Positions 1,524 through 63,294 of a stretch of DNA of 64,000 bases are shown piece by piece. The notes under the pieces were generated by a model. That model saw only the letters and a list, made by a program, of their open reading frames with translations. It was not told where the DNA came from and ran no database searches. How positions within the stretch are numbered: position 1 is the stretch's first letter; the number at the start of each line of letters is the position of its first letter. Position numbers and translations under genes: made by a program. Source of the stretch: an uncultured virus (IMG/VR IMGVR_UViG_3300032322_002129) (taxonomy: Duplodnaviria > Heunggongvirae > Uroviricota > Caudoviricetes); IMG/VR virus record IMGVR_UViG_3300032322_002129; one strand, 5' to 3'.

Positions 1524-1910
1524 TTACATAACCTTCACATCAGGATTACACAAACTATTTATCCATAATCCCAATATCAAAGAGTCTGCAAAAGACAGCT
1601 CCACATGACTATGCTCCACACCACCAAGCCTGATATACCAAACTGCTTTGTAATTTTCAGTATAGTACTTGAATTGTAATATCAGCAAAGGATTTTCAAC
1701 ACTAAAGGTAGCGTTTGCATAACTGTAATTAAATACATACGTTGGATTCTCTTCTGCATTTTTTAAGAACGAAGTTGCTTTACGAAAGCCATGCGCATGG
1801 AACATTTGTTCGTATGCGTTTATACATACTGTCTTGTGATCCATGTATAACGACAGTAATGTTAAACTATCTTTACTATCACCCTTGATAAAAATATGAT
1901 CTCTTTCCAT
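1524..1910 (-). CDS. Hypothetical beta-rich early protein
   Basis: ORF between elements, GAAGG RBS. Confidence 0.75.
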   Translation of the reverse strand: MERDHIFIKGDSKDSLTLLSLYMDHKTVCINAYEQMFHAHGFRKATSFLKNAEENPTYVFNYSYANATFSVENPLLILQFKYYTENYKAVWYIRLGGVEHSHVELSFADSLILGLWINSLCNPDVKVM

Positions 1911-16770: not shown

Positions 16771-17661
16771 CTACTCCTTATCTCCATGTATCCCAGACAA
16801 AATATGAGCAATTACATCAACAGTCCAACCATTACCGAGCATCTTATAGCGATGTGTTTTTGGATGTCCCTCAGTGTAATTGTCTGGTAATGTTTGTAGC
16901 CTTTCACATTCAACTGGTGTGAGTTTTCTTGTTGTGTATCTACCATCTGGTAGATTTATAAAGTACTGATTATATGAACCATCATCCTCTTCAATAGACA
17001 CAAACTTATTATACACAGTGTATGATTTGTCTTTAGTAGGTGGCTCAAACACTAATGTTCTCATATGATTTGTTTTTTTAACATGACGCTTCATGGTAGT
17101 ACCAAAAGAGTAATGAGCATCAACACAATATGATTTATCCCTATCAACAATACCAGACTCTACAATATCTTGCAGTACTAGTGTAGTAGGCTCTGGTAGT
17201 GGTAGTTGTGGTATGTTTGTCCAATAATAACGCTTTCTTAGCTGTGCTGAAAAGTGTGAAGAATTAATACATATAGGTTCAACACCAATAAGATTTGTTA
17301 TTATATCTAACCACTCTTTCTTCATTGATACATTTTCTAATAGAAAATATTTAGGTTTTACAGACTTTACTATATCTACAAAATTGTATAATAGAGCACT
17401 TCTTGGATCATCAAACCCTCTCCTCATTCCTACATTGCTAAAACCTTGACATGGAGATCCACCCATAACAAGATTTATATTTTCTGGTATTATTATACTT
17501 TGTATATCTCCTAACTGTATTGTATTAGGAAAATGTTTCTGTGTTACTTGGATCGCCCTCGTGTCAATTTCTGAAGCATAGTATTTACTATATTCAATAC
17601 CAGTACGTCGTAATGCAACTTGACCACAGCTAATACCATCAAATAAACTTAATACGTTCAT
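16771..17661 (-). CDS. C5-cytosine DNA methyltransferase
   Basis: LSLFDG, GGSPCQGFS, LLENV, Q.R.R.YW, ERLQ, GNGW. Confidence 0.93.
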   Translation of the reverse strand: MNVLSLFDGISCGQVALRRTGIEYSKYYASEIDTRAIQVTQKHFPNTIQLGDIQSIIIPENINLVMGGSPCQGFSNVGMRRGFDDPRSALLYNFVDIVKSVKPKYFLLENVSMKKEWLDIITNLIGVEPICINSSHFSAQLRKRYYWTNIPQLPLPEPTTLVLQDIVESGIVDRDKSYCVDAHYSFGTTMKRHVKKTNHMRTLVFEPPTKDKSYTVYNKFVSIEEDDGSYNQYFINLPDGRYTTRKLTPVECERLQTLPDNYTEGHPKTHRYKMLGNGWTVDVIAHILSGIHGDKE

Positions 17662-43990: not shown

Positions 43991-44545
43991 TTATTTGTTT
44001 AACGTAAGAAGATGTTCTTCTGCTGCTTTGATGTATGATGCGCTTTTATCTAGCCGCGCAAGCACTGCAATAAGCCTTCCAACAGTTACTGGGCTGCTAA
44101 TACCATACAACTGCTTTTTGTATGCAGTAATTGGAGAAAAGTTTGCAATTGCTTCAAGATTAGCATCAGACATACTGTTGGTAGTATCTACTCCTGATGC
44201 TTCACCATCATACAAACGAATCAGTCCACGTTCAATAAGTGTTTTATTAAACCTTCGGAATAATCGAACTTCATTATCGCTGTACAATTCCAATACTTCA
44301 TCTTCATAGACCAGTGTAACTTTACTACTACTGTCTGGAAAATCTTTCTTATTTAATTTTGTAAAATCAAAGTTTGTTGGATTGGTGCGAAGAACAAAAT
44401 CGATTGATTCCGAAGGCTTATATGGATTAAGACGTTTTCCACTTACCATATGAGAAACCGTCTTAATCCATCGTTCAACTACTTGTTGATCAAACTCAAT
44501 AAATTGATGATTTTTTGACATACCTATTCCTTGTAGCAAACACAT
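43991..44545 (-). CDS. Hypothetical head-region protein (likely start MSKN at 44521)
   Basis: Directly after the capsid gene; AAGGA RBS. Confidence 0.65.
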   Translation of the reverse strand: MCLLQGIGMSKNHQFIEFDQQVVERWIKTVSHMVSGKRLNPYKPSESIDFVLRTNPTNFDFTKLNKKDFPDSSSKVTLVYEDEVLELYSDNEVRLFRRFNKTLIERGLIRLYDGEASGVDTTNSMSDANLEAIANFSPITAYKKQLYGISSPVTVGRLIAVLARLDKSASYIKAAEEHLLTLNK

Positions 44546-44592
44546 GTTTGCCTCTATCGTATAGTTTCTAAAACTATACTATCAATACACTG

Positions 44593-45336
44593 TTAGTGCG
44601 TGAGCTTTAGCACACCAATGCCTTCGGGATCATCAACCATCATACCGTATGCCTGCCAGCAATGCAGCACATAGTTAGGTGGCTGAGTAGAAGGATCGGT
44701 GTAATCCTGAAACTCTGTTGCCCCATAGAGAGCAATGATACCAGGATTATCAGCAATAATCAGCACCTTGTCATCAGGGATAAGACGATCAGCGCGAAGA
44801 TTACCGCTGTACGCATTTGCAGGTAGCAGGTTACGTGTTACCTGTGGTAGTTCGATAACGGGAATACCCGTGTAGCGAGTAACCTTGCGGGTGTTGGTAA
44901 ACTCGTTAAATGCAGCTTCAATAGGAAATGCTACAGCATCCGTGTTGCTACCAGCTAGCTCAAACTCACGAAACTGACCAAAGGTGTACATTGGTCGAAG
45001 AGCCTTGCGCGTACCCATAATAGCACGAACGTTCTGACCATTATCCAGCATTGACTCGATCATCGTATCAAGAGGAGTCTGGGTAAGAGGGCCAGCAAGG
45101 TCTTCATAGTTGTTGGGAGTATCGCTTTCGTTCCAGGTCGTGGTAAGTAGGTTAAACACTTTGCTTACCAGATTGTCGAAAATATCAGCGCGAAGATCAT
45201 TGCGCATCTGAGCAACACTGCCAACTTCGCCAGAGTTAACTTCCCAGAGTGAGTGAGAAGTACCGGCGATAAGACGATCAAACACAAACGTGTACTTATC
45301 TACGAATGATGTTTGATCAGTAAGATGCTTTGAACC
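44593..45336 (-). CDS. Major capsid protein, exon 2 (GSKHLTDQ...)
   Basis: In-frame join to exon 1 after intron removal gives ~327 aa; HK97-like C-terminus (YTGIPVIEL, YGMMVDDPEGI). Confidence 0.85.
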   Translation of the reverse strand, partial: GSKHLTDQTSFVDKYTFVFDRLIAGTSHSLWEVNSGEVGSVAQMRNDLRADIFDNLVSKVFNLLTTTWNESDTPNNYEDLAGPLTQTPLDTMIESMLDNGQNVRAIMGTRKALRPMYTFGQFREFELAGSNTDAVAFPIEAAFNEFTNTRKVTRYTGIPVIELPQVTRNLLPANAYSGNLRADRLIPDDKVLIIADNPGIIALYGATEFQDYTDPSTQPPNYVLHCWQAYGMMVDDPEGIGVLKLTH

Positions 45337-46353
45337 CAAAAGTGTTATGAATATATCGTTAAATATATTCCTTCCTATCACTAGGAAGATCAGACTATAT
45401 CATCATCTCTTCGTATAGAAGAGAGCCTAACACGCGGTATGGTTATCTCTTGTGTTTACAGCTTCCCGCGCAGCGGTTTCGCGGAGAGCTTTTCGTTCCT
45501 TTAACCGACTGTACACGATAGTTTTATCAACTTTATACGTAAAACTTGGTTGTACAAATGGGGTGACAATATCAAGCATGCGATCAACATCTTTTGTTGA
45601 CAATTGCAGATAGTATAACAATGAACCAACTTTTGAACGATACTGCTTGACGTTCCAGTCTAAATTAAACTTCTCTTTTAATGCACTGCGTAGTAACATT
45701 TGTTCTGCATAGCAGAATGATTCAGTTGAAAGTGCAATTTCATGACGAAAGGTATTTTTTCGGAATGATCCACTATGCCATCCATCTTGTACAAACCAGA
45801 TAGCAAGAAACTCTGCATCTAGTAATGTAAGATGATGTGGATCAATAACTTTACGTCCGATAGGATACATTCTTTCACGAAAGTTTGTGTAGAATGGATG
45901 ATGTCGTGATCGTATGCGTATAGTTGGTTTGATTGTTTTTGTTGCTGTTTTTACACCAGCCCGCACATCGTAACGAATACTGGTGATGTGTGATAAGCGA
46001 TCTGCAATATAATCTAAATGATCAAGATGCTCTGATGTTTGTCCAAGTTCAAATCCGCTGTTTTCCTTATTCTTGCACGCAGTAACGTGCGCGTCTCCAA
46101 ATAAACAAGCAGCTACAATCTTTGTAAGTTCTTTTCTATTTGGTGTAATGACAAGTGGTGCTTGAGTAACCACCTTCCTTGGTAGATTGACAGTAAGAAC
46201 CTCTGTTTCTACTTCTTGTTCTAAACATACCATAGTCGTTGCTCTTCTCCATCAGGAGTAAGATCAGGATTGTCAACAATTAATATTGATGTTCCCTGAG
46301 TTCTGTTAGGTGAAACATACAGCATCACTACTGTACGGCCCAGTTCAGCAGCT
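45337..46353 (-). mobile_element. Group I intron (1017 nt) in the major capsid gene
   Basis: Exon ends in U with P1 U.G pair; P2 and P9 with GUGA loops; P4 UCAGGG/UCCUGA; P7 GACUA/UAGUC; P3 CCUAAC/GUUAGG; P8; terminal G; P10 UGAACU/GGUUCA. Confidence 0.92.
45427..46233 (-). CDS. Intron-encoded LAGLIDADG homing endonuclease (start uncertain)
   Basis: ACLFGDAH and LAIWFVQDG motifs, GRKVI, L.TE.F. Confidence 0.88.
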   Translation of the reverse strand: MVCLEQEVETEVLTVNLPRKVVTQAPLVITPNRKELTKIVAACLFGDAHVTACKNKENSGFELGQTSEHLDHLDYIADRLSHITSIRYDVRAGVKTATKTIKPTIRIRSRHHPFYTNFRERMYPIGRKVIDPHHLTLLDAEFLAIWFVQDGWHSGSFRKNTFRHEIALSTESFCYAEQMLLRSALKEKFNLDWNVKQYRSKVGSLLYYLQLSTKDVDRMLDIVTPFVQPSFTYKVDKTIVYSRLKERKALRETAAREAVNTRDNHTAC

Positions 46354-46593
46354 AGGCACCATCGTGCGAACAGGATACATACCACGTCGTACCCGGCGAG
46401 CAATTTCATCACCAGGGGCAATAGTCATGGTGGGCATGAAAGAGCTAAACAGATCAAGCGTAAGCTTGTTTGGCTGAATAACATCCATCATCACTTCTGC
46501 ATAGCTACTGCGACGGTTAGGGGCATTACCAGCACCGCGTGCATGTTCCGCAAGTGCCTTGACATATTTCTCTTCTAGCATTGACTTCTCCAT
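46354..46593 (-). CDS. Major capsid protein, exon 1 (...RTMVP)
   Basis: 80 codons ending at the 5' splice site. Confidence 0.85.
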
Positions 46594-46599
46594 AATAGA

Positions 46600-47139
46600 T
46601 TACTGGCTAAGGGTGAACACAAGCACGCCGAGGGAACTATTGTACTCTTCGGTATATCCGACAGCTTCAGACTCGGTAGCAGTGTATTCCCACTTACCAC
46701 TTGCACCAACCTTAATCTTGTTACCAGGAACACGAATGTTTGAGCTATCAGTAAATGCACCGGAAGGTACGGCGTAGGTACCCCCACGCTGCGCGGTAGC
46801 AAGAACACCAGAGGGAAGCGTGGGGTTCCATAGCGTGCTCATACCAACAAGATACTGATTGCCAAGGTTGCGAATAGGATCAGCGTACCCACTGTTACGA
46901 TCCATCACCACACTGGGATTAGCAGTGTAGAAGGCTTCACGAGTAGGGCGTGAAAAATCATCTGGCGCGGCGATAAGAATAAACACGTTCACCGTTTCAC
47001 CAGCAGTTGCAAGCGTAGCAGTAGGAAGATCAGGCTTGAGTGCATTTGCTGCACCAAGTTTCACTGCAAGACCTTCCTGAAATGCACCACCTAGACGTAC
47101 ACCACGTGAAACGTCAGAAAGACGACTAACATAAGCCAT
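46600..47139 (-). CDS. Head decoration / capsid-associated protein
   Basis: Between scaffold and capsid genes, Gly/Ala-rich beta protein, AGGAG RBS. Confidence 0.6.
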   Translation of the reverse strand: MAYVSRLSDVSRGVRLGGAFQEGLAVKLGAANALKPDLPTATLATAGETVNVFILIAAPDDFSRPTREAFYTANPSVVMDRNSGYADPIRNLGNQYLVGMSTLWNPTLPSGVLATAQRGGTYAVPSGAFTDSSNIRVPGNKIKVGASGKWEYTATESEAVGYTEEYNSSLGVLVFTLSQ

Positions 47140-47157
47140 GGATAATCTCCTACAATG

Positions 47158-48792
47158 TTATACAATTTTACGTAATGCTTCAGCTAGTGAAGCATGCGTG
47201 ATAAGTGATTCGGTAAAGATTGGTTCTGGAATTGGTTGGTGGATAGATGCTTGTGATTTATTTTTTTCCCGCGCAAAATCACGAACATATTGTTCGAATA
47301 CGCGGTCAGTCATCTCCAAAATGACATCTTCGCGCTCAGCCCATTCAGCTTCGCGCATCACCACACCAGCTGAACTTAGTTGCTGTTTGCGTTGAACGAT
47401 AAGCGATGCCTTTCGTTCTGCCTCTGCTTTTACTCGTTCAATTTCTGCGAGGGTGAGTTGTGCTCTGTTTAGATCTTCGCGCACACCTGCAAGCTCAGCT
47501 TGTGATTTACTAAGCTCTTGCTGAAGTGATGTAATTCGCTGAACAAGATCTTGCAAACTTGCAGAAAACGATTCGGCAAATGGCTTCATATCCATGTACT
47601 TCTTTTTCTTCTTTTTGTAGGCTTCTACTTCTGGTAGTAAATTATCAAATACGCCTACCATGGATGTTTGAAGCTGATTCATCATCATGTAAAACAACTC
47701 AATAAGTGCTTCAAACTCTTCTTCTAATGGATCTTCCATATCATTCTCAGGCATAACACCAGGAGTATCACCAGGCATATCACCTGAATATGGTTCATCC
47801 ATGCTTGATTCTGCTTCAAGTACAGGATCTACATTTTGATCTTCAATAGTATCTTCAGTAGTATTTGACATTGATTCACTTTTTGGTTCTTCACTTTGGC
47901 TTTCTGCCCAACTCATTGCACGTCGTGAGCTGGTAGAAGATCCACCACCCCAGAGCGCGTGGGCAACAACACCAGGTGAAGGATAATCTTTGTGTCCAGG
48001 CTTTGCAGACGGAGCAGTAAGATCAACCATATGACGAGCAAACCATGCAGCCATACGTTTTGCTTTATCACGACTAATTGATCCAGAAGCCATCTGCCTT
48101 GCTTCACGCACAGTTTGTGCTGTTACCCCATCTCCGGATTTTCCTTCTTCGTGCCACTTTAATCCACGCCGCGCATTATTTCTAATCCATTGAGGAACAC
48201 TTACTGCTGCAACTTCATGCTCTTGTTCAGCTTCTTGTTCAATATTTTGTTCTTTCTTTGCAATAGTTTCTGCAATAGCAAGAATACGTGTTCTGTTTGG
48301 GCCATATGCGGGGGTATCAACAATACACGTTCCAGCAAGGATACAATCACTTAACCATTCAACACCAGATTCATCTACCGTTGAATCGCTGTGATAGATT
48401 TCCCAAGATGTTCCAACACCTTCAGCAAACATTTCTTTAAGGTATGTAGCAATATCGGAATGATCTTCTGTCCAAATAACTGCTTCCCCTTTTACTACTT
48501 CCCGCCCATTATCAGTATCTTCATATACTCGTACAATTGGGCCTAAAGGGATTGCTCCAGAATGACCATGAAATTGCTCACCATCAAAGTTAATGCGAAG
48601 CGGCATGTTTAATGCAGATCGCATAATGTTTGCTTTTTCACGTAATGGAATAGCTTGATTGTTAATATTTGGCTCAAAGTCGGTAAGAATAAGCCCTACT
48701 CTTGTCTGTAGTGGGTTGTTTGATTCACTCACTGCGGCTGATGATTGAATATACCCACGAGCGAGTGCTTTATGCACTCTGGCTTCTGTCAT
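47158..48792 (-). CDS. Prohead protease-scaffold fusion with an inserted helical domain
   Basis: H, SWEI and IVDTPAY protease-like motifs; acidic linker; C-terminal coiled coil. Confidence 0.75.
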   Translation of the reverse strand: MTEARVHKALARGYIQSSAAVSESNNPLQTRVGLILTDFEPNINNQAIPLREKANIMRSALNMPLRINFDGEQFHGHSGAIPLGPIVRVYEDTDNGREVVKGEAVIWTEDHSDIATYLKEMFAEGVGTSWEIYHSDSTVDESGVEWLSDCILAGTCIVDTPAYGPNRTRILAIAETIAKKEQNIEQEAEQEHEVAAVSVPQWIRNNARRGLKWHEEGKSGDGVTAQTVREARQMASGSISRDKAKRMAAWFARHMVDLTAPSAKPGHKDYPSPGVVAHALWGGGSSTSSRRAMSWAESQSEEPKSESMSNTTEDTIEDQNVDPVLEAESSMDEPYSGDMPGDTPGVMPENDMEDPLEEEFEALIELFYMMMNQLQTSMVGVFDNLLPEVEAYKKKKKKYMDMKPFAESFSASLQDLVQRITSLQQELSKSQAELAGVREDLNRAQLTLAEIERVKAEAERKASLIVQRKQQLSSAGVVMREAEWAEREDVILEMTDRVFEQYVRDFAREKNKSQASIHQPIPEPIFTESLITHASLAEALRKIV

Positions 48793-48851: not shown

Positions 48852-49625
48852 TTAAAATACCGTACTACAGATACCAACACATTCAGTACTTGGATCGTAG
48901 GAAAATAAATCTAATTGAAGTGATTCATGCTCTAACTGAATGCGTAAATCTTCTAAACTTATTGAGGAATGAAATGTAGACTTTCTTCCAATTTCTTTGG
49001 AAAACTCTTTTTCTACTCGTTCTCTTTCTGCATATACTTCTGGAAGTGTTCGGTAGAGATGTTTCCAGCTATTTATACCTTGGCGCACACATCCACCAGC
49101 ACAGTTGTTATGAGTAAAACCTAATTTGTATAATAAAGGTTGTTCAATATTTGCATCTTTAAGAAATTGATCTATCTGTTCATCAGTAACATTTTCAGTT
49201 ATTAAAGGAAAACGTAGGTAACAAGGTTTATTATTTCTAGCAGAAAGAGAAGCGTATACGTCTGTTATTCGTTTTGCACGATGTGATTCGTGCGGGGCAA
49301 TACCAAAAACAAGAATATCATGCGGTTGATAGAACTCCTGTAATCTCTTACCTTTTAACGTTGAAGAGCAGAATGGATGACGATCTGAGCCAAGCATACC
49401 TTGCTCAAAAAAAAGATCTTCAGGAGTTCTACCATCTACATCATATACAATTTCTTTAGTAAAGTACGCAGAAAGATCTTGTAGAAATCGATATAGATCG
49501 CTATGTTCCCATTTTGTATCGTTAAAATACAGAATAACTGAATCTTTAGGATAGGTCTTTAATGCCCAGTCTGCACACCATGCACTTGCTTTTCCTCCAC
49601 TAAGTGCGACGATAACTCTTGACAT
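48852..49625 (-). CDS. PAPS-reductase-like (PP-loop) protein with Cys cluster
   Basis: LSGGKAS, DT.WEH.DLYRFL, CS..LK, HNNC.GGCV. Confidence 0.82.
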   Translation of the reverse strand: MSRVIVALSGGKASAWCADWALKTYPKDSVILYFNDTKWEHSDLYRFLQDLSAYFTKEIVYDVDGRTPEDLFFEQGMLGSDRHPFCSSTLKGKRLQEFYQPHDILVFGIAPHESHRAKRITDVYASLSARNNKPCYLRFPLITENVTDEQIDQFLKDANIEQPLLYKLGFTHNNCAGGCVRQGINSWKHLYRTLPEVYAERERVEKEFSKEIGRKSTFHSSISLEDLRIQLEHESLQLDLFSYDPSTECVGICSTVF

Positions 49626-50699: not shown

Positions 50700-51146
50700 A
50701 TGGCAGATTTTAATCAAAATAGATTTAAAAGCAATAATCAATCTTGGGAAACACCAGATTATTTATTTGATAGATTAAATAAAATATTTAATTTTACAAG
50801 AGATGTTTGTGCTTCAAAAGATAATACAAAGTGTGAACAATATTGGTCTGAAGAAGATTCTTGTTTAGATAAACAGTGGGATGGTGTAAACTGGATGAAT
50901 CCACCATATAAAAATATGAAGTTTTTTATTAAAAAAGCATATGAAGAAAGAAAAAATGCTATAACTGTATGTTTAATTCCAGCAAGAACTAACACTCGTT
51001 GGTGGCACGATTATTGTATGAAGGGAGAGGTTTTGTTTATTTGTGGTAGACCAAAGTTTAAAGGATGTACACATGGTCTTCCTCAACCTTTAGCTTTAGT
51101 TATTTTTGGAAAAACTAGTAAGGTTATGGATTCTTTTTATTTGTAA
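50700..51146 (+). CDS. Phage N6-adenine DNA methyltransferase (Dam-like)
   Basis: WETP, D.CA, WMNPPY, LIPART.T.WW. Confidence 0.92.
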   Translation: MADFNQNRFKSNNQSWETPDYLFDRLNKIFNFTRDVCASKDNTKCEQYWSEEDSCLDKQWDGVNWMNPPYKNMKFFIKKAYEERKNAITVCLIPARTNTRWWHDYCMKGEVLFICGRPKFKGCTHGLPQPLALVIFGKTSKVMDSFYL

Positions 51147-52741: not shown

Positions 52742-53072
52742 AACATTACCAAACCTTCGCGCATATCCTGTACGTAATGCAATTGTTGTTATGACAGATT
52801 TTACGTACAAACATCGTCGTGTTGGGGTATTGTGGGTAGATAAAGATACTCACAAAAGCCTACAAGATTACTACGTAGGAGTAGTGTGCGCGAATGATAA
52901 TACAGAAGCAATTCTTCACTTCATGATCAACACCAACGCTATTACAACATATGGGAAGGAGTATGTATTTGATGAATTAGTATTTTATTTTGAAAATTAT
53001 CAACATCAACTCCCAAAAATGTGTATATGGGATGATGATTCTTATTGTATTATTGATGAGTATGAACAATGA
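52719..53072 (+). CDS. Hypothetical protein
   Basis: Coupled ORF. Confidence 0.65.
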   Translation: MVIAMVAKTLPNLRAYPVRNAIVVMTDFTYKHRRVGVLWVDKDTHKSLQDYYVGVVCANDNTEAILHFMINTNAITTYGKEYVFDELVFYFENYQHQLPKMCIWDDDSYCIIDEYEQ

Positions 53073-53782
53073 TTACATTACATCACAAAGACTGTCTAGA
53101 AGTGCTTGCAAGATTACCAAATAGCTCAATAAACCTAATTCTACAAGATCCTCCATATAATACAACAGCTTGTTCTTGGGAGTGGGATATATTCACACAA
53201 ATAGATACTTTCTGGTATGAATGGAAAAGAGTTCTTACACCAAATGGTGTTGTCGTCATGACCGCAAGTCAACCATTTACAAGTAAGTTAGTTGTAAGTA
53301 ATTTACCAATGTTTAAGTATGAGTTTGTGTGGGATAAAGTAATACCAAGAGGACATCTTGTTGCTAAAAAGCGCCCAATGCAACAGACTGAAAGTCTGCT
53401 TGTATTCTACGCAAAAGCACCGACGTATAATCCGCAAATGGTAGAAAGAGAGAAGCCAATTAGAGGTACTGAAGGAAAACGAACATCTATTATGGGTGGA
53501 GTATCAAAAGGCTACCCTAAAAAAGTATATACTCACAAATACCCTACAAACTTGTTAAAAATTAAACCAGAAAAAGAAAAACTACATCCTACTCAAAAAC
53601 CGGTTGATTTAATGAGTTATATTATTAAAACATACACTAATGAGAACGATGTAGTATTTGATGGATTTATGGGATCTGGTACCGTTGGAGTAGCTTGTAA
53701 AAAGTTAAGTAGGCAGTTTATTGGATGTGAGTTAAATCATAAGTATTTTGAAATAGCAAAAACAAGAATATATGGAGTATAA
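53069..53782 (+). CDS. N6-A/N4-C DNA methyltransferase (beta class)
   Basis: DPPY, HPTQKP, FMGSGT. Confidence 0.93.
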   Translation: MITLHHKDCLEVLARLPNSSINLILQDPPYNTTACSWEWDIFTQIDTFWYEWKRVLTPNGVVVMTASQPFTSKLVVSNLPMFKYEFVWDKVIPRGHLVAKKRPMQQTESLLVFYAKAPTYNPQMVEREKPIRGTEGKRTSIMGGVSKGYPKKVYTHKYPTNLLKIKPEKEKLHPTQKPVDLMSYIIKTYTNENDVVFDGFMGSGTVGVACKKLSRQFIGCELNHKYFEIAKTRIYGV

Positions 53783-54587
53783 TTTGACAACAATACTACA
53801 CCACAAAGACTGTCTAGAAATACTGAAAACACTACCAGATGCAAGTATTGATGCAGTAATTACCGATCCTCCATATCTTACTACTGATTTACACTTTGAC
53901 AAAGCAGGTAATGCGTTACACAATCCTCTACAATGGGTTCATGAGCTTTTACGAGTAGTTAAACCAAATGGCTATTTAGCACTCTTTTCACCAGTAGAAA
54001 TGCAAGCACAAGTTGCACAGATTTGGTCAATGCGTTTTAGTGGGGCTTGGGTAAAACCAGCTGGCTCTATGCGTACACACTCCGCAAAGAAGCCTATGAA
54101 CCAATGGGAGTTATACTGCGTTTTTGCTCATCCAAAACATAAAGTATCAGAGTTAACTTGGAATAAAGCAACATATGAAACTGGTAAGCCTTGGAAAAAA
54201 GTAAAAAGAAACCTTGGTTATAAGCGTGATGGAAAAGATCAACTAGACCGTTCTGATACTTCTGCTTGGACAGAAGAAGGGTATGTAGGATCAAGCGATG
54301 GGCGTAGATATTATACTGATACACTTTTTGGTGGTCAGAAAGCCTATATGCCAATGGCAGAACGTACTATTCATCCTACACAGAAACCAATTGCAGTAGT
54401 AGAAGTATTAGTACAGTGGTTAACGAATACTGGTGAAACAGTACTTGATCCGTTTATGGGGTCTGGTACTACAGGAGTTGCTGCAAAGAAGTTTGATCGT
54501 CAGTTTATTGGTGTGGAATGTAATCATGCGTATTTTTGTATTGCGAGAGATCGTATTGAGAGTTATACTGTGCGCGCACAAGAATAA
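53772..54587 (+). CDS. N6-A/N4-C DNA methyltransferase (beta class)
   Basis: TDPPY, HPTQKP, DPFMGSGT. Confidence 0.93.
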   Translation: MEYNLTTILHHKDCLEILKTLPDASIDAVITDPPYLTTDLHFDKAGNALHNPLQWVHELLRVVKPNGYLALFSPVEMQAQVAQIWSMRFSGAWVKPAGSMRTHSAKKPMNQWELYCVFAHPKHKVSELTWNKATYETGKPWKKVKRNLGYKRDGKDQLDRSDTSAWTEEGYVGSSDGRRYYTDTLFGGQKAYMPMAERTIHPTQKPIAVVEVLVQWLTNTGETVLDPFMGSGTTGVAAKKFDRQFIGVECNHAYFCIARDRIESYTVRAQE

Positions 54588-54598
54588 GGGGAAATTGC

Positions 54599-57500
54599 AT
54601 GTCAACATTTAGTGATACTATTTTAGCTCATAAGTACCTAAACAAAGATCTTGGTGAAACATCATGGGATGATGTTGCTCGTCGTGTTGCTTGGGAGGTT
54701 GTGGGGAAGAACTATCCGAGGGCTTACAAAGAAGTCTACCAGATTATTAAAGATAAGAAGTTTATTCCTGGTGGACGTTACCTGTATGCTGCTGGACGTC
54801 CGTATCATCAGACACAGAACTGTTTTGCTGCTGAAACACGTGTTCCATTTTATGAAAATAATCAATTTTGTGTAAAAACTGCACCAATTAAAGATCTTGT
54901 TGGAAAGCCAGATCTAGTGATTATGACAACTGGTGGTACGTGGACACAGGCAGAGATTAAGTCATTTGGTGTGCAAAAGCTCTCAAAGATTACACTTCAA
55001 CGACAGATTAACATTTATATGATTTCTGATGGTGGTACGTTAGAGACGTATGAAGAGAAAGTGATTTATGCTACACCAGGTCACTCTTGGCGTGTGCGCG
55101 CTGTAAACACAGATACCAAAGAAGTAAAGAAGCAAGAAGTACAGACAAAACATCTGAAGCCTAAGATGGAGTTGTGGGATGTATACGATCGCGCACATCG
55201 TTGGACTGTGATGTCTGTAGAAAAGACGGATCGTGAAGAGGAAGTATTTTGCGCGGTAGTAGAAAATACCCGTGAGTTTGTCATTGATGGAGATATTCTC
55301 ACAGGAAACTGTCTACTGCTTGATGTAGAAGATACTCGCCAAGCATGGGCTGATCTCTCTCGCAGATCGGTAGAAGGTCTTTCTACTGGTGCTGGTATTG
55401 GTGTGGTGTATTCAAAGATCCGCCCAAATGGAAGCCCTATCCGTGGTATGGGTGGTAAGGCTACTGGCCCTATTGCATTGATGCAGATGATCAATGAGCT
55501 TGGTAGGCATATTCAGCAGGGTGGAAGTAGGCGGTCGGCTCTCTGGGCTGGGCTTCACTGGAACCATGCAGATGTTCATGATTTTATTGCATTGAAGAAT
55601 TGGATTCCTGAAGTGCGTGCGCTAAAGGAAAAAGATTTTAATTTCCCCGCACCAATGGATGGTACAAACATTAGTGTTATTCTTGATGATGATTTCTTCA
55701 AAGCATATCATGATACCAATAACCCACAACATGTTCATGCACATGATGTGCATAAAAAAGTTGTGAAAAGTATGCTAAAGACTGGGGAGCCCGGCTACAG
55801 TGCCGACGTTGGTAAGAATGCCGGTGAGCATCTTCGAAATGCACCAGTAACCGCTGATACGTATGTATTGACTAAGCAGGGATACAAAAAGGTGCGCGAT
55901 ATTGTAAACACTTCAACAGAGCTATGGACAGGAAAACAGTGGGCTGTAGCTACATTTACCAAGACTGGTGAGAACGTTCCAGTAGTACGAGTAGAGATGA
56001 CTGGTGGGCGTGTTATTCGATGTGATCCTTCTCATGAGTTTTTTGTGAATGTATTTTCTTTAGAAAATGCTCGTAGGAAATTTAGTGATGTTATGAAAGT
56101 CCGCGCACAAGATCTAGAACCAGATATGGTGCTTCATACATCACTACCACCAGTACACAACGAGCAGCAAGTAGATCGTGATGCGTACACGTTAGGCTAT
56201 CTGTATGCTGATGGAGTATTTACCAAAAACAGCGCATATGTACATGTACCATGTAACACTGATGCTGCTGCAAGGCTATACACCAATTTACTTGTTTCAA
56301 GTAGGTATAAGTCTGCTAAAGTTATCAATGAGGGAGGTTTAGCCAAAGTTATTTACAAATCAGATAAGGAATATTGGTCTGGTAGAAAGAAAACTATCTT
56401 TCCAGAAGAGGTATACACCTACAACACAAATCAAATTGTTTCATTTCTTGCTGGACTATTTGATGGTGCTGGTGTATTCAACGCAGATCAAGCGCGTGTG
56501 CGGCTAGTTTCAAAAGACAAAACCTTTCTTCGATCAATTGCACGTCTACTAGAACAAGTAGGTATCTTTGCAGGAGTTGGTAAATCTGGATATTCAAAAA
56601 CTGGCATGCAGCGATGGTGTTTAAATATTATGCACGATTACCTTTCTGCATTTGTTACAACTATCCCATGCCAGATTTTTAAACCTGATGTCAGTGAGTA
56701 TGAGTCATATCGCGCATCAGATATTCGTGTACTCTCTGTTACAGAAGACGGTGCAGAGGATGTGTTTTGCTGTGATGTGGGTGTTCCAGAGCACTCCTTT
56801 ATGGCTGAAGGTATTATTATTTCTAACTGCACTGAGGTAACAAGTGCTGATGATTCGGATGTTTGTAACATTAGCTCTATCAATCTTGCTCGTATTGAAA
56901 CGCTGGATGAGTTTAAGCATGTAGTCAATCTTGCAATGATCTTCCTACTCTGCGGTACCTTATACAGCAAAGTGCCGTTTGCAGAAGTTGCAGCAACACG
57001 CGAGAAGAATAGACGTCTTGGATTAGGTTTAATGGGCATGCATGAATGGCTTCTTGTGCGCGGGAAGAAGTATGGCCCAGATCCAGAATTAGCCACATGG
57101 CTAGAACACTATAGCACATCAACAGATATTGCAGCAGGATATGCTGATGAGCTTGGTATTAGCCGTTCGGTAAAGACACGGGCTATTGCTCCAACAGGCA
57201 CCATTAGTATTATTGCAGAAACAACATCTGGTATCGAACCATTGTTCTGCTCTGCATTTAAGCGCCGATACTTGAAGGGAAATACCTGGCATTACCAATA
57301 TGTGGTCGATGCAACAGCACAGCGTATTATTGAGCGTGGTGTTGATCCTGATAGCATTGAAGACGCATATTCACTGGCAAATGATGTAGAACGCCGATTG
57401 GCATTCCAGTCGTTTGTACAGCAGTATGTTGACCACGGTATTTCTAGCACGATCAATCTTCCTGCTTGGGGAAGTGATTTGAATAATGAAACACGGGTTG

Positions 57501-57688
57501 ACTCATTCGCTGACATGTTGATGAAGTACCTTCCAACACTTCGCGGTATTACGACGTATCCTGATGGTGCTCGTGGTGGGCAGCCGTTGGTAGCAGTACC
57601 ATATCGTGAAGCAGTGAATCAAACTGGTACTGAGTTTATTGAGTATGGGAATGAGAATGCGTGTGTAAGTGGGGTGTGTGGGATTTAG
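54599..57688 (+). CDS. nrdJ: Class II (B12-dependent) ribonucleotide reductase with two inteins; ~538 aa after splicing
   Basis: PGGR, QGGSRRSA, spliced N-C and NA-CTEV, APTGT, SGIEP, ISSTINL, C-terminal C..G.C. Confidence 0.92.
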   Translation: MSTFSDTILAHKYLNKDLGETSWDDVARRVAWEVVGKNYPRAYKEVYQIIKDKKFIPGGRYLYAAGRPYHQTQNCFAAETRVPFYENNQFCVKTAPIKDLVGKPDLVIMTTGGTWTQAEIKSFGVQKLSKITLQRQINIYMISDGGTLETYEEKVIYATPGHSWRVRAVNTDTKEVKKQEVQTKHLKPKMELWDVYDRAHRWTVMSVEKTDREEEVFCAVVENTREFVIDGDILTGNCLLLDVEDTRQAWADLSRRSVEGLSTGAGIGVVYSKIRPNGSPIRGMGGKATGPIALMQMINELGRHIQQGGSRRSALWAGLHWNHADVHDFIALKNWIPEVRALKEKDFNFPAPMDGTNISVILDDDFFKAYHDTNNPQHVHAHDVHKKVVKSMLKTGEPGYSADVGKNAGEHLRNAPVTADTYVLTKQGYKKVRDIVNTSTELWTGKQWAVATFTKTGENVPVVRVEMTGGRVIRCDPSHEFFVNVFSLENARRKFSDVMKVRAQDLEPDMVLHTSLPPVHNEQQVDRDAYTLGYLYADGVFTKNSAYVHVPCNTDAAARLYTNLLVSSRYKSAKVINEGGLAKVIYKSDKEYWSGRKKTIFPEEVYTYNTNQIVSFLAGLFDGAGVFNADQARVRLVSKDKTFLRSIARLLEQVGIFAGVGKSGYSKTGMQRWCLNIMHDYLSAFVTTIPCQIFKPDVSEYESYRASDIRVLSVTEDGAEDVFCCDVGVPEHSFMAEGIIISNCTEVTSADDSDVCNISSINLARIETLDEFKHVVNLAMIFLLCGTLYSKVPFAEVAATREKNRRLGLGLMGMHEWLLVRGKKYGPDPELATWLEHYSTSTDIAAGYADELGISRSVKTRAIAPTGTISIIAETTSGIEPLFCSAFKRRYLKGNTWHYQYVVDATAQRIIERGVDPDSIEDAYSLANDVERRLAFQSFVQQYVDHGISSTINLPAWGSDLNNETRVDSFADMLMKYLPTLRGITTYPDGARGGQPLVAVPYREAVNQTGTEFIEYGNENACVSGVCGI
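54821..55309 (+). mobile_element. Mini-intein (163 aa) in RNR
   Basis: Starts CFAAET, ATPGHSW block B, VFC block F, ends LTGN/C. Confidence 0.9.
55844..56827 (+). mobile_element. Intein (328 aa) with LAGLIDADG endonuclease at the RNR catalytic Cys
   Basis: Starts PVTADT, CDPSHEF, LGYLYADG and LAGLFDGAG, VFCC, ends IISN/C. Confidence 0.88.
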
Positions 57689-57768: not shown

Positions 57769-58599
57769 ATGCAAGAAATACATAAAATAGAACCAGCATC
57801 AGAAGAATGGTGGCTTTTCCGGAAACCTATCTCAGAAGCAACGATTACAGACAATGTACTTCACTGGGGTACTGGTGGGTTGAATATTGATGGGTGTAGG
57901 ATTGAACTTGATGATGCCTCCAAAGAGATGGCTGGTAAGTTGAAGCAGAGAACTAACAAACCTTCAGGGAGAGGACTTCATCACAATCCTAAATCAGATA
58001 TTCAAAGAATAAAATTGGATCGAGAGATTGACACTTTTAAGTTGTCTGGTCGATGGCCAGCGAATGTAGTGCACGATGGTAGTGATGAGGTGGTGGGGAT
58101 GTTTCCAGATACTTTACCTGCAAAACAAGCAGAACGTGGTAAAGGTATTGACAGATCTACATTTCGACATAAATCTGGAGAATTACATGGTGTGAGAGGT
58201 CATAATGATTCTGGAGGTTCAGCAGCACGCTTCTTTTATGGGGCAAAGGCAAGTGTGCGTGATAGGGATGAGGGGTTGAGTAATTTTACCAAAAAACGTT
58301 CTGGTGGTATGTCTGCTACATTGGATGGATCAATGCTTACTGGTAGTGGTAATGAACGTACTACTACCCGCGCAAATATTCATCCTACGGTAAAGAGTAC
58401 TGAGTTGATGCGGTATTTGTGTCGTTTAATTACTCCCCCGCACGGAATAGTTCTTGATCCGTTTGCTGGTAGTGGAAGTACTGGAAAGGGTGCATTGAAA
58501 GAAGGTTTTCAGTTTATTGGTATTGAGATGGATGAGGAGTATTATACTATTGCCCGCGCAAGGCTGGAGCATGTACTTCAGCAGAAAGGATCTTCATGA
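57769..58599 (+). CDS. C-terminal half of a DNA methyltransferase (no motif IV)
   Basis: GTGGLNID, GRWPAN, HPTVK, DPFAGSGST; no DPPY-type motif. Confidence 0.75.
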   Translation: MQEIHKIEPASEEWWLFRKPISEATITDNVLHWGTGGLNIDGCRIELDDASKEMAGKLKQRTNKPSGRGLHHNPKSDIQRIKLDREIDTFKLSGRWPANVVHDGSDEVVGMFPDTLPAKQAERGKGIDRSTFRHKSGELHGVRGHNDSGGSAARFFYGAKASVRDRDEGLSNFTKKRSGGMSATLDGSMLTGSGNERTTTRANIHPTVKSTELMRYLCRLITPPHGIVLDPFAGSGSTGKGALKEGFQFIGIEMDEEYYTIARARLEHVLQQKGSS

Positions 58600-60714: not shown

Positions 60715-63294
60715 ATGCCTATACGAAAAAAGCTAGATGAAAAGGATTTAGACCTTTTAGAAGTACTAGAAGATGAAGTGTGGTTAACTGAGTTTTTACG
60801 CAACACATCAGACGGTGAGTATAATCGTGCGCTTTGGCCAGCACAACCATGGAAGTATCGAGACTATCAAAAACAAATACTTACTGATAAATCAAAATAC
60901 ATTTCTCTTACTGGTGGGCGTGCTATTGGTAAGTGTGAGCCGGGTGAAGCAAAGATCCTTACCGTAGGGCGTGGATATATGATGTTGAAAGACCTGGTGA
61001 AAGAAACATCATTTCCCGTGTATGCGCTGGATCAATACTCAAACCTTGTTCAGCGTAGAGCAAGAGTTACACCAGATGATATGGCTCCAGTAAAAAAGAT
61101 TTATACTCGTGCGGGGCATTTAATACACGTTACAGCAGAACATCCAATCCTTACACCAGATGGATGGGTAAAAGCAGAAAACATTGATGTAGGATCGCTA
61201 GTTGGTGTATTGACACAAATACCCAACGATATGATTAGTCAAACATTTGCCTGGCATGAATTACGATTTTTTGGATATATTTTACTAGATCCCCCATTGC
61301 GTGAAAGTACTGTTTTTGTGCCGAAGTATAAAAAGATTGGTGAAGAGTTTAAGTATATTTGTTCTCTTTTACCAGTAGATGTATTTCCTCGTGAGAATGG
61401 GTTTGGTGTGCGTAGGGTTAAGGGTGGGTATTTTTCTACAATCCGCGCACTTTACAATGATGTAGGCTTTGATGATGACTACGTATTTTCCTTGCGTATG
61501 TCAAGCATGCCTGAACTATTGATGCTAGAGTGTAAAGATAATCTTAAAGTATTTCTTGAAGCACTGTTTGCTCAGTTTGCAGAGGTATCTGCGCGGGAGA
61601 TTAGTATATTTACACGCTACGAATCACTTACCTTTGCACTACAAACAATGCTCTTGCGCTTTGGTATTGAATCACGCATTACTACAAAAGACGAACCAAA
61701 TAGTTATAGCCTTGAAATACTTGATTACGAAAATGTGTATGATTTCTGGAAAACATTTACATTACCCGGTGTATCTGTTGATCAACTAGAAGAGCCTGTA
61801 CGTAAAGCACGAGTAAATGCACATCTTCGATATGATGAAGTGGTGTATGTGGATATGCCAATATATCCAGTACAAACATATGCTGTCCATGTGCGCGAAG
61901 ATAATAACTATATCTCCAGTAACATCTATGTACATAACACTGTAGTACTTGAAGATAAAATTATCTACGAGGTAGTAAACTATGAACGTGAGTTTCCTGT
62001 TACACCAGAGCAGGTACTTACCACAGCCAACCAGTCGCAGATGCAGCCATTGCTGTCAAAACTTATACAACGTTTTACTTCAAGCCCACTACTAAAACAT
62101 TATTTACAGAACAATGTAAATAAACAAGATGGTACGATGAGGTTTCCTGCACGAAGTAAACCATTCACGTTTTACTTTCGTATCGCAGGTAGTAAAGGCG
62201 AAAACAACGTCGTAGGGCTTCACGTACCAAAAGTGAAAATTGATGAAGCACAACTGTACCCACCAAATGCGTACACACAACTGCTTCCGATTATTAACTA
62301 TTGGGAACCTAAAACACAGCTTCTTATTACTGGAGTATCAAATGGTTTACGTAATTCTGTGTTGTATTTAGTAGATCAAAAAGATCCGAAGTTTAAGAAA
62401 TATCGTATTCCCTCGCACAATAACCCATTCTACTCACGAGAGCAGGATTTACAGAACTTACGTGACTGGGGCGGTGAGAATGATGATCGCTATGTTCAGC
62501 TTGTACTTGGTAGACACGGATCAGCAGCATTTCAAATCCTTACCAGAGATGATTTTAAAGTAGAAAGTTTTCCATTTCATAATTATCGATACCAGAGTAA
62601 TCAGAAGATGAAAGGTATTCATTATCACGAAGTATTAGGAACACCAGCTATTCCAGAATCAATCCAGCTTGTCATGGCTATTGATACAGGATTTGTTGAT
62701 CCTACCATTATTCAGCTTATTGGTATGGATAAGTATCACATTTGGAGAACCTACTGTAGGTATCACCTAAATCGTATTGACTTTACTGAGCAGAGAAAGA
62801 TTATTCATTGGTTAGCTACAGAATATAATGTACAAACAATTGCGATGGATATTGGTGCTGGTGGTGGTGGTGCTGGTATTATGCACGCACTACTCCATGA
62901 GGACGAATATAAAAACGATAACTATAACCAACGAATTGTACCAGTCATTTTTAATGAAAAGATTGTTGTAGGATTACGCGAATCTGGTGAGGAAGTAGCA
63001 GATGATGCAAAGTCACATGGTACAAAAGTACTAGTGACCGAAGTTCAATCAAGCCGATTAGTATTTAGTGATGTAGATCATGAGGGGATTTCACAACTTG
63101 AAAGAATATCGAAGCAAAAACTTAGTACTGGAAAAGATCGTTATTTTGTACTATCCGATCGCGGAAGTGGTGCAGATTCAAATGATCACATTTATGCCAG
63201 TTATATTTGTTTTGGCATTGCAATTGATCGTGGTTTAGTAAAGCCCGCGCAAGCTACACGAAAGCTACCAACAGTATCTGGAGTGTATACCTAA
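60715..63294 (+). CDS. terL: Terminase large subunit with intein
   Basis: R.YQ, GRAIGK/T Walker A after splicing, KIDEAQ Walker B, AIDTG nuclease, NDH. Confidence 0.9.
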   Translation: MPIRKKLDEKDLDLLEVLEDEVWLTEFLRNTSDGEYNRALWPAQPWKYRDYQKQILTDKSKYISLTGGRAIGKCEPGEAKILTVGRGYMMLKDLVKETSFPVYALDQYSNLVQRRARVTPDDMAPVKKIYTRAGHLIHVTAEHPILTPDGWVKAENIDVGSLVGVLTQIPNDMISQTFAWHELRFFGYILLDPPLRESTVFVPKYKKIGEEFKYICSLLPVDVFPRENGFGVRRVKGGYFSTIRALYNDVGFDDDYVFSLRMSSMPELLMLECKDNLKVFLEALFAQFAEVSAREISIFTRYESLTFALQTMLLRFGIESRITTKDEPNSYSLEILDYENVYDFWKTFTLPGVSVDQLEEPVRKARVNAHLRYDEVVYVDMPIYPVQTYAVHVREDNNYISSNIYVHNTVVLEDKIIYEVVNYEREFPVTPEQVLTTANQSQMQPLLSKLIQRFTSSPLLKHYLQNNVNKQDGTMRFPARSKPFTFYFRIAGSKGENNVVGLHVPKVKIDEAQLYPPNAYTQLLPIINYWEPKTQLLITGVSNGLRNSVLYLVDQKDPKFKKYRIPSHNNPFYSREQDLQNLRDWGGENDDRYVQLVLGRHGSAAFQILTRDDFKVESFPFHNYRYQSNQKMKGIHYHEVLGTPAIPESIQLVMAIDTGFVDPTIIQLIGMDKYHIWRTYCRYHLNRIDFTEQRKIIHWLATEYNVQTIAMDIGAGGGGAGIMHALLHEDEYKNDNYNQRIVPVIFNEKIVVGLRESGEEVADDAKSHGTKVLVTEVQSSRLVFSDVDHEGISQLERISKQKLSTGKDRYFVLSDRGSGADSNDHIYASYICFGIAIDRGLVKPAQATRKLPTVSGVYT
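60934..61938 (+). mobile_element. Intein (335 aa) in the terminase Walker A, degenerate LAGLIDADG
   Basis: Starts CEPGEA, VTAEHP block B, ends YVHN/T. Confidence 0.9.

What the first reader, a model, noticed from the sequence alone, without database searches (positions are those of the whole stretch)
44593..46593. Group I intron with homing endonuclease splits the major capsid gene
Seen: complete ribozyme core, splice sites at 46354/46353 and 45337/45336 restoring RTMVP-GSKHL, and the LAGLIDADG ORF inserted between P7 and the 3' strand of P3. Phage introns mostly sit in DNA-metabolism genes; here the most abundant virion protein depends on splicing. A hairpin overlapping the SD-like AAGGAAGG near 46155-46181 may damp endonuclease translation (inference).
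Basis: partly seen in the sequence, partly recalled or inferred. Interest (0 to 1): 0.7.

Follow-up and report, generated by a model that had tools for sequence, protein, structure and literature searches.

The report
Mobile intron splits phage capsid gene
The only major capsid gene seen in this uncultured phage is interrupted by a self-splicing-type (group I) intron carrying its own homing endonuclease gene; the element is well supported, but it is a kind already known in phages.

Summary
Exon 1 is 46593..46354, the intron is 46353..45337 (1017 nt) and exon 2 is 45336..44593. Intron-less homologs of about 325 aa run straight across RTMVP|GSKHL. A model of the family has the HK97 capsid fold.

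The intron follows the group I rules:
- It has U before the 5' splice site and G as its last base.
- P1 and P10 pairing aligns both exons.
- Helices P1-P9 are supported by compensatory changes in three diverged relatives (independently).

Rfam RF00028 stays below its gathering score of 50 bits: 29.4 bits in the window and at most 49.5 bits in relatives.

The 268-codon ORF (46233..45427) is an I-SceI-like LAGLIDADG_2 endonuclease. It lies between P7 and P3', and its stop codon lies inside P3'. It appears to be under purifying selection.

The kind is already known. The LittleE capsid intron was shown experimentally to splice (PMC3706429), and this scan has 27 similar notes on other DNA. This is a new member of a known kind. 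Splicing and cleavage remain untested.

The parts
46354..46593 (-). Major capsid gene, exon 1. The longest ORF starts at ATG 46593. The likely true start is ATG 46581, which gives a 323-aa spliced product.
   Evidence: ATG 46593 has no SD-like motif upstream. ATG 46581 has GGAG 6 nt upstream and matches the N-termini of homologs.
45337..46353 (-). Group I intron, 1017 nt.
   Evidence: The junction is defined by intron-less homologs. U lies at -1 and G is the last base. Rfam partial matches. Covariation.
44593..45336 (-). Major capsid gene, exon 2 (247 codons plus stop).
   Evidence: HK97 fold of the family model.
45427..46233 (-). Intron ORF of 268 codons: an I-SceI-like LAGLIDADG_2 homing endonuclease. 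In-frame start candidates are 46233, 46227 and GTG 46173.
   Evidence: PF03161 at 91.3 bits and phrog_11023. I-SceI is the best solved relative, E 4e-7. It is 62% identical to the L052 intron ORF, with the alignment beginning at residue 27. 9 synonymous against 3 nonsynonymous differences to L001.
46338..46357 (-). P1 hairpin: the last 4 exon bases plus the first 2 intron bases pair with 46343..46338. The internal guide 46347..46342 also pairs with the first 6 bases of exon 2 (P10).
   Evidence: Read. P1 is kept in 4 of 4 diverged introns for 5 of its 6 pairs.
46317..46336 (-). P2 hairpin, 8 pairs, GUGA loop.
   Evidence: 6 of 8 pairs have both-sides changes in relatives.
46304..46310 (-). P3, 5' strand.
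   Evidence: Pairs with 45432..45426. 4 of 7 pairs have both-sides changes.
46244..46299 (-). P4-P5-P6 domain.
   Evidence: Rfam partial match at 16.4 bits. RNAalifold predicts it with no hand fitting: 8 of 15 pairs have both-sides changes.
46232..46237 (-). P7, 5' strand. It overlaps the first two bases of the ORF's ATG.
   Evidence: Pairs with 45398..45393. L074 carries two adjacent compensatory pairs.
45426..45432 (-). P3, 3' strand. It contains the ORF's stop codon TAG (45429..45427).
45406..45424 (-). P8 hairpin.
45393..45398 (-). P7, 3' strand, inside the conserved J8/7-P7 core motif.
   Evidence: Rfam alignment. The motif occurs in at least 122 other viral contig stretches.
45349..45388 (-). 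P9 hairpin (45388..45371, GUGA loop) and a further hairpin (45370..45349).
   Evidence: Reading by eye, each relative also has a hairpin after P9.

Best explanation
A mobile group I intron sits in the HK97-fold major capsid gene of an uncultured tailed phage.

Inferred steps:
- After late transcription the pre-mRNA folds into the P1-P9 core.
- A free guanosine attacks after U46354, which is held in a G.U pair in P1.
- The terminal G45337 then docks. The two exons, aligned on one internal guide (P1 plus P10), are ligated.
- The product is an mRNA for a capsid protein of 323-327 aa.
- The endonuclease cuts intron-less capsid alleles of co-infecting relatives at the conserved site that encodes MVP|GSKHL. 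Repair then copies the intron in (homing).

What is shown:
- The intron carries an intact I-SceI-like LAGLIDADG endonuclease gene between P7 and P3'.
- The exact junction, the paired core with covariation, the intact and constrained ORF, the capsid fold, and the presence of intron-plus, ORF-less and intron-minus alleles in relatives.

Splicing, cleavage and homing were not tested.
For: - **Junction.** All 9 full-length homologs aligned are contiguous across VP|GS. This includes P0003, which is 85% identical to exon 2; its locus L051 has no insert.
- **Group I rules.** U lies at -1 and G is the last base. P1 has 6 pairs and P10 has 6 pairs, both on one guide sequence.
- **Core.** Of 60 pairs in P1-P9, 33 have both-sides changes, and 93.3% of cells are paired against 31-41% when the partner is slid. 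RNAalifold without hand fitting recovers P4-P6, P8 and P9.
- **Rfam RF00028 E-values.** 5.7e-5 for the window, 8.8e-7 for L052, 1.6e-6 for L074 and 3.4e-10 for L049.
- **Other alleles at the same site.** L001 is 95% identical in DNA. L052 has about 67% core identity and a 62% identical ORF. L074 has an ORF-less 242-nt intron. The database ORF P0113 ends RTMVP+2.
- **Endonuclease.** PF03161 at 91.3 bits. I-SceI is the nearest solved structure. dN/dS against L001 is 0.09, and pN/pS against L052 is 0.34.
- **Capsid identity.** 342 Foldseek matches at E<=0.001, led by phage capsid proteins. The gene lies upstream of a Neck1/tail-completion gene and the likely tail genes.
- **Copy number.** There is no second capsid copy in the window or in the 85-kb relative G001.
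- **Target.** The first and second codon positions around the insertion site are near-invariant in 43 distinct intron-less sites.
Against: - No match reaches Rfam's gathering score of 50 bits. The best is 49.5 bits, in L049, which sits at another site. The window scores 29.4 bits.
- The covariation count was made on an alignment that I fitted to the structure. It has only four diverged sequences, so it leans towards the model.
- No RNA evidence was obtained; splicing itself is inferred.
- The endonuclease's start codon is unresolved, and none of the three candidates has a well-placed SD, although 32 of 46 genes here have one.
- The AlphaFold model is of medium confidence (pLDDT 73.9, TM 0.38-0.50 to the hits).
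- The window's genome is incomplete here. Its own assembly is not held, and relative G001 is estimated 63% complete. A second capsid gene elsewhere cannot be excluded.
Confidence: 0.9

Rival explanations
1. The element is a decayed or splicing-incompetent intron. The capsid gene would be broken and the phage defective, or splicing would depend wholly on a protein cofactor.
For: Rfam scores lie below gathering. Nearly 800 nt lie between P7 and P3', which could hinder folding. No RNA evidence was obtained.
Against: All core helices are intact, and pairing is maintained by compensatory changes across relatives. The capsid exons are under strong purifying selection, with dN/dS about 0.05 against L001 and L052, which is not expected for a dead gene. 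The same arrangement occurs in three separate contigs.
Confidence: 0.06
2. The endonuclease gene splits the capsid gene without RNA splicing, and the capsid protein is made as two polypeptides that assemble. The Aeromonas phage Aeh1 NrdA split by mobE is described this way in PMC7344957 (passages read).
For: Gene callers in public data call the halves as separate proteins: P0001 (262 aa) and P0111 (82 aa). An in-frame GTG at 45381 opens an ORF into exon 2.
Against: A complete ribozyme core with covariation flanks the ORF. ORF-less introns of 242 and 210 nt split relatives' genes in the same way, and a free-standing endonuclease cannot explain that. The break falls inside the most conserved motif of the family.
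Confidence: 0.03
3. The split is an assembly or chimera artefact that joins unrelated DNA into the capsid gene.
For: The window is from an uncultured source, and its own assembly is not held.
Against: The same insert at the same base is found in L001 (95% identical) and in the diverged L052 from other collections. The insert ends obey the group I rules.
Confidence: 0.01

Closest known systems
Capsid-gene intron of mycobacteriophage LittleE (Cluster J), Pope et al. 2013, PMC3706429 (passages read)
   Same: A probable group I intron in a major capsid gene. It has U before the 5' splice site and G at the intron end, and it carries a LAGLIDADG ORF. It is absent from close relatives. Its splicing was shown by RT-PCR and N-terminal sequencing.
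   Different: The LittleE ORF lies on the opposite strand; here it is on the sense strand and threaded between P7 and P3'. The capsid family differs: LittleE has a delta domain and 478 mature residues. LittleE has a cultured host and is temperate. No sequence relation was tested.
Capsid subunit gene intron of lactococcal phage Tuc2009 (known to me only as cited in PMC3706429; the paper itself was not seen)
   Same: A group I intron in a phage capsid gene.
   Different: Details were not seen here, and no comparison was possible.
Phage subgroup IA2 introns such as T4 td and Twort orf142-I2 (recalled, not tested)
   Same: They share the conserved J8/7-P7 core motif. Extra sequence lies between P7 and P3', where IA introns, as I recall, carry P7.1/P7.2. 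Sense-strand endonuclease ORFs are looped out of the core.
   Different: Those sit mostly in nucleotide-metabolism genes. As I recall, their ORFs lie in P6 or P9 loops and encode GIY-YIG or HNH enzymes. Here L049 has 1 nt and L074 has 19 nt at that place, so P7.1/P7.2 are not a constant feature. Subgroup membership was not tested.
I-SceI (PDB 1r7m, 3oor and others)
   Same: It is the best solved relative of the ORF (E 4e-7, aligned over residues 120-239). It has the same Pfam family as I recall it, and is a monomeric two-motif LAGLIDADG enzyme.
   Different: I-SceI is encoded by a yeast mitochondrial rRNA intron. Only the C-terminal half aligns by sequence, and target specificity is unrelated.

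Membership tests
Group I intron (Rfam RF00028) | Covariance-model score at or above the curated gathering score (50 bits) | tested here: not met
   The window scores 29.4 and 16.4 bits in two pieces, with 0 matches at gathering. Relatives score 29.2 (L001), 37.5 (L052), 36.6 (L074) and 49.5 (L049). I attribute the window's low score largely to the 799-nt ORF insert (not tested); the ORF-less relatives also stay below 50 bits.
Group I intron (Rfam RF00028) | U as the last exon base, paired G.U in P1; G as the last intron base | tested here: met
   U46354 and G45337. The G.U pair is kept in all 4 diverged introns (pair 12:26).
Group I intron (Rfam RF00028) | Core helices P3-P9, including the crossing P3/P7 arrangement, supported by covariation | tested here: met
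   33 of 60 pairs have both-sides changes. P3 has 4 such pairs of 7, P7 has 2 of 6, P4 has 3 of 6 and P9 has 4 of 7. Searches give independent predictions of P4-P6, P8 and P9. Caveat: only four diverged sequences, on an alignment that I fitted.
Group I intron (Rfam RF00028) | An internal guide sequence pairs with both exons (P1 and P10) | tested here: met
   Six pairs each in the window, read. By my reading, P10 is only 4 pairs in L052.
Group I intron (Rfam RF00028) | Removal restores the host reading frame exactly as in intron-less alleles | tested here: met
Group I intron (Rfam RF00028) | Guanosine-dependent self-splicing | not testable with these tools
   No RNA evidence was obtained; see Tried and rejected.
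Group I intron, subgroup IA2 | P7.1/P7.2 between P7 and P3' (feature recalled) | tested here: inconclusive
   The ORF insert lies at that place. L074 has a small hairpin there and L049 has 1 nt. In the window no hairpin there beats shuffles.
LAGLIDADG homing endonuclease (PF03161, I-SceI-like) | Profile match above the curated cut-off | tested here: met
   91.3 bits against a cut-off of 25, residues 39-217 of 268. phrog_11023 E 3.7e-13. I-SceI E 4e-7.
LAGLIDADG homing endonuclease (PF03161, I-SceI-like) | Two LAGLIDADG-type motifs, each ending in an acidic residue | tested here: met
   Read by eye...LFGDAH... and ...WFVQDGWH..., both conserved in the L052 ORF. The assignment of the catalytic residues is recalled, not computed.
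LAGLIDADG homing endonuclease (PF03161, I-SceI-like) | Site-specific cleavage of the intron-less allele | not testable with these tools
   Only the conservation of the target DNA was measured.
HK97-fold major capsid protein | HK97 fold | tested here: met
   AlphaFold model of intron-less homolog P0003 with 63 sequences: pLDDT 73.9. Foldseek against PDB: 342 matches at E<=0.001, led by phage capsid proteins and encapsulins, TM 0.38-0.50.
HK97-fold major capsid protein | Position in a head-morphogenesis module, and the only such gene | tested here: met
   A Neck1/tail-completion gene, small ORFs and a 1227-aa ORF lie downstream; by position I read these as tail genes and the tape measure. No second copy in the window or in G001. 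Both records are incomplete genomes.

The most novel reading that the evidence does not exclude
The endonuclease ORF is threaded through the catalytic core. Its first ATG shares two bases with P7, the guanosine-binding helix, and its stop codon lies inside the 3' strand of P3. Ribosome transit and ribozyme folding would then exclude each other, which would give a built-in switch between capsid mRNA maturation and endonuclease synthesis.

The relatives look like snapshots of how the ORF arrived at this unusual place. L049 has 1 nt between P7 and P3', L074 has a 19-nt hairpin, and L052 and the window have 704-799 nt with the ORF.

The wider genome adds to this picture. It has inteins in the terminase and the ribonucleotide reductase. 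A 95%-identical relative lacks the reductase intein and instead has an intron with a LAGLIDADG ORF about 40 nt away. This phage lineage could therefore be an unusually active arena of competing selfish elements.
Probability: 0.25. Interest if true: 0.5.

Novelty: new member of a known kind. Interest (0 to 1): 0.3.

Why it matters
There are three practical points.

1. **Annotation.** Public gene calls split this capsid gene into two unnamed proteins: P0001 (262 aa, starting at a GTG inside the intron) and P0111 (82 aa). Capsid-based detection and classification of such phages can therefore miss or truncate the marker gene.
2. **A recurrent target.** This capsid family is hit at two or more sites. 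Site A (VP|GS) is occupied in the window, L001, L052, L074 and P0113. Site B (after ..SHS) is occupied in L049, P0112 and P0114. Intron-plus, ORF-less and intron-minus alleles are all on hand, which makes a natural series for studying intron gain, endonuclease invasion and loss.
3. **Splicing efficiency.** A structural protein needed in hundreds of copies depends on splicing here, so the ribozyme must be efficient. That argument was already made for LittleE (PMC3706429).

None of this changes what is known about the mechanism.

Tried and rejected
- **Rfam at gathering threshold** over the whole window: 0 matches. At E<=0.1 only the capsid intron and one chance microRNA-family match appeared.
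- **'phages' collection:** no tblastn match to exon 2 and no blastn match to 44400..46800.
- **Genome contigs:** 38 pattern hits, and none encodes a relative. No prophage copy and no host clue.
- **The window's own assembly** is not held. I used the nearest record, G001, instead.
- **RNA evidence:** no RNA holder is listed. Two runs of one study held small shares (0.10 and 0.05 of words). Laid on 44400..46800, they gave six short contig pieces and no joint. This says nothing about expression.
- **Core-motif scan of viral contigs:** None of the 122 loci read carries this capsid family, and two carry a weak relative of the endonuclease. The motif is generic.
z -0.85. Rejected as a supported feature.
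- **A P7.1-like hairpin at 46190..46232:** z +0.80. Rejected.
- **Promoter-like sites in 44400..47300:** 5 found against 6.4 expected, so there is no sign of an intron-internal promoter. One 'terminator-like' hit is simply P9.
- **Mismatch profile, window against L001.** I looked for a co-conversion tract. The intron has 0-5 mismatches per 100 nt and exon 2 has 1-9, within a patchy genome-wide pattern. This is not decisive.
- **Core identities.** I asked whether the ORF-less site-A intron (L074) is nearer to the site-B intron (L049, 64.5%) than to L052 (64.0%) or the window (56.7%). There is no clear lineage signal.
- **PF27364.1** is precomputed on some homologs but was not matched in the local Pfam copy. 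Its name is unknown to me.
- **Earlier notes by place and by sequence:** nothing on this genome, this capsid family or this endonuclease.
Full report
**What is there.** All features lie on the minus strand.
- An ORF from 46593 reads MEKS...RTMVP and stops two codons later.
- A 268-codon ORF follows at 46233..45427.
- A third ORF, from a GTG at 45381, reads 15 unrelated residues and then GSKHL... to 44593.

A search with the GSKHL... part found 110 proteins at E<=0.001 among 329 candidates. Most are 311-338 aa long. All nine full-length ones that I aligned with the two window pieces cover both pieces without a gap, reading ...R(T/S)M(V/T)PG(S/A)KHL... across the break. In a 63-sequence alignment, P75, H79 and L80 are invariant and G76 is nearly so.

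Exon 1 ends in U and the insert ends in G. Shifting the junction by one base would still encode Pro-Gly but would break both group I rules.

**The gene is the major capsid gene.** Profile evidence alone was weak: phrog_29 E 0.0024 and SU10_MCP E 0.063 on a homolog. An AlphaFold model of the intron-less homolog P0003, built with the 63-sequence alignment, reached pLDDT 73.9 and pTM 0.65. Foldseek against the PDB gave 342 matches at E<=0.001. The list is led by HK97-fold capsid proteins (P4/P2 procapsid, mycobacteriophages Ogopogo and Douge, cyanophages, HK97 itself) and encapsulins, with modest TM-scores of 0.38-0.50.

The neighbours fit. Downstream on the same strand are a Neck1/tail-completion protein, small ORFs, and a 1227-aa ORF that I take to be the tape measure from its size and position alone. 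The window also encodes DNA polymerase, primase, helicase, several methyltransferases, ribonucleotide reductase and a large terminase. No second capsid copy is in the window or in the 85-kb relative G001. Both are incomplete genomes.

The likely true start is the second ATG, at 46581. ATG 46593 has no SD-like motif, whereas 32 of 46 genes here have one. ATG 46581 has GGAG six bases upstream and matches the homologs' N-termini. The spliced product would then be 323 aa.

**The insert is a group I intron.** Rfam RF00028 matches it only below the gathering score of 50 bits. The P8-P7'-P9 end scores 29.4 bits (E 5.7e-5) and P4-P6-P7 scores 16.4 bits (E 0.45). Nothing appears at gathering. I attribute the low score largely to the 799 nt that lie between the two strands of the core, although the ORF-less relatives also stay below 50 bits.

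Reading the sequence gives these elements:

| Element | Window coordinates |
|---|---|
| P1 | last four exon bases plus two intron bases, paired with 46343..46338, including the U.G pair at the splice site |
| P10 | 46347..46342 paired with the first six bases of exon 2, so one guide sequence holds both exons |
| P2 | 46336..46317 |
| P3 | 46310..46304 with 45432..45426 |
| P4-P6 | 46299..46244 |
| P7 | 46237..46232 with 45398..45393 |
| P8 | 45424..45406 |
| P9 | 45388..45371 |
| Further hairpin | 45370..45349 |

**Relatives test this structure.** A tblastn of P0003 over 100 related loci found four loci with a split gene. Some of the 100 are the same contig held in both collections.

| Locus | Site | Insert | Rfam RF00028 |
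|---|---|---|---|
| L001 | same as window | intron plus ORF; 95% DNA identity to the window | 29.2 bits |
| L052 | same as window | intron plus ORF; core about 67% identical | 37.5 bits |
| L074 | same as window | 242-nt ORF-less intron | 36.6 bits |
| L049 | about 30 codons downstream | 210-nt ORF-less intron | 49.5 bits, E 3.4e-10 |

I aligned the two core halves and justified each hairpin from its ends. I then counted 60 pairs over the window, L052, L074 and L049. L001 was shown but not counted, because it is nearly identical to the window.
- 224 of 240 cells are standard pairs (93.3%). With the 3' partner slid by 1-3 columns the figure is 31-41%.
- 33 pairs carry a change on both sides in at least one relative.
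- Examples: P7 in L074 swaps two adjacent pairs; P4 in L074 and L049 changes three of six pairs; P2 has different sequences in each lineage but always forms 7-8 pairs.

This alignment was fitted to the model and has few sequences, so it leans towards the structure. As an unfitted check, I ran RNAalifold on plain MAFFT alignments of the halves.
- It predicts P4, P5 and P6, with 8 of 15 pairs changed on both sides.
- It predicts P8 and P9, with 7 both-sides changes among the 20 predicted pairs.
- It also predicts a few spurious pairs where P3' and P7' lack their partners in a half-molecule.

**The ORF.** It is PF03161 LAGLIDADG_2 (91.3 bits, cut-off 25) and phrog_11023. Its best solved relatives are I-SceI chains (E 4e-7). 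Two LAGLIDADG-type motifs, each with its acidic residue, are visible and conserved in L052.

It appears to be under purifying selection. There are 9 synonymous against 3 nonsynonymous differences to L001 (dN/dS 0.09). Against L052, pN is 0.275 and pS is a saturated 0.81.

At that place L049 has 1 nt and L074 has 19 nt with a small hairpin. The stop codon TAG lies inside P3' in the window, L001 and L052. The first ATG shares two bases with P7.

The real start is open. The L052 ORF begins at the position of window residue 25, and homology starts at residue 27. The in-frame candidates are ATG 46233, ATG 46227 and GTG 46173, and none has a well-spaced SD.

A hairpin does form at 46150..46185 (-8.4 kcal/mol), but 39 of 200 shuffles do as well. 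The region is absent from L052. In L001 the substitution at 46152 removes what I read as its closing pair. The AAGGAAGG motif abuts GTG 46173 with no spacer. I do not regard it as a supported regulatory feature.

**Mobility.**
- *Allele types.* Intron-less alleles (such as L051, 73-80% DNA identity in the exons), intron-plus-ORF alleles and ORF-less alleles coexist in the family.
- *Target conservation.* I located the insertion site in 59 of the 100 loci, giving 43 distinct intron-less 30-mers. In these, the first and second codon positions around the site are near-invariant. This is the kind of target homing endonucleases favour, as I recall it.
- *Further split genes in the database.* P0113 ends RTMVP+2 (site A). 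P0112 and P0114 end just after ..SH(N/S) (site B). Exon-2-only ORFs such as P0002, P0004, P0077 and P0094 begin at or just before GSKHL. I could not fetch their DNA.
- *What remains inferred.* Homing itself.

**Comparison with what is known.** Pope et al. 2013 (PMC3706429; passages read) describe an 819-bp probable group I intron with a LAGLIDADG ORF in the major capsid gene of mycobacteriophage LittleE. Its splicing was proven by RT-PCR and N-terminal sequencing. They also cite a capsid-gene intron in lactococcal phage Tuc2009. My three literature searches found no paper on this capsid family. This scan's own notes hold 27 findings of capsid-gene group I introns with LAGLIDADG genes in at least 26 other genomes, none on this family by sequence.

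**Verdict.** This is a well-supported new member of a known kind. It is ordinary in mechanism. It is mildly notable for the ORF's placement through the core and for the two-site, three-state allele series in one capsid family.

Noticed in passing
window 54599..57688 (+): The ribonucleotide reductase large-subunit ORF (1029 aa) contains an intein with a LAGLIDADG_3 endonuclease domain. Intein_splicing matches residues 447-742 and the barrel domain is split around it. By comparison with G001, the intein DNA is about 55843..56827.
   Followed up: partly
L223 (G001:C1:57177-60315), about 791..1684; window equivalent 55791..55805: The 95%-identical relative G001 lacks the reductase intein. About 40 nt upstream of the intein site it instead has an insert of roughly 890 nt, with an RF00028 match (30.2 bits) and a 234-aa LAGLIDADG_2 ORF. 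Two close strains thus carry an intron or an intein at neighbouring sites of the same gene.
   Followed up: partly
window 60715..63294 (+): The large terminase ORF (859 aa) carries an intein: Intein_splicing over residues 91-408, plus LAGLIDADG_3. Three essential genes of this phage host selfish elements.
   Followed up: partly
L049 4315..4524; proteins P0112, P0114, P0105, P0012, P0029: There is a second intron site in the same capsid family, inside the Val codon after ..AGTSHS. In L049 it is occupied by a 210-nt ORF-less group I intron (Rfam 49.5 bits). Truncated ORFs in other contigs suggest the same site is occupied there too.
   Followed up: partly
window 46581 vs 46593 (-): The capsid gene's longest-ORF start (46593) has no ribosome-binding motif. 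The ATG four codons downstream (46581) has GGAG at the usual distance and fits the homolog N-termini.
   Followed up: yes
window 13647..14756, 16771..17661, 50700..51146, 53069..54587, 57769..58599: The window holds an unusually large set of DNA methyltransferase genes, at least six ORFs with methyltransferase PHROG matches, together with a PAPS-reductase-like gene at 48852..49625 next to the head genes.
   Followed up: no
window 46600..47139 and 47158..48792 (-): Two ORFs lie directly upstream of the capsid gene (179 aa and 544 aa) and have no informative family match. Their position suggests decoration, scaffold or protease roles. The 544-aa protein matches only PHROGs of unknown function.
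   Followed up: no
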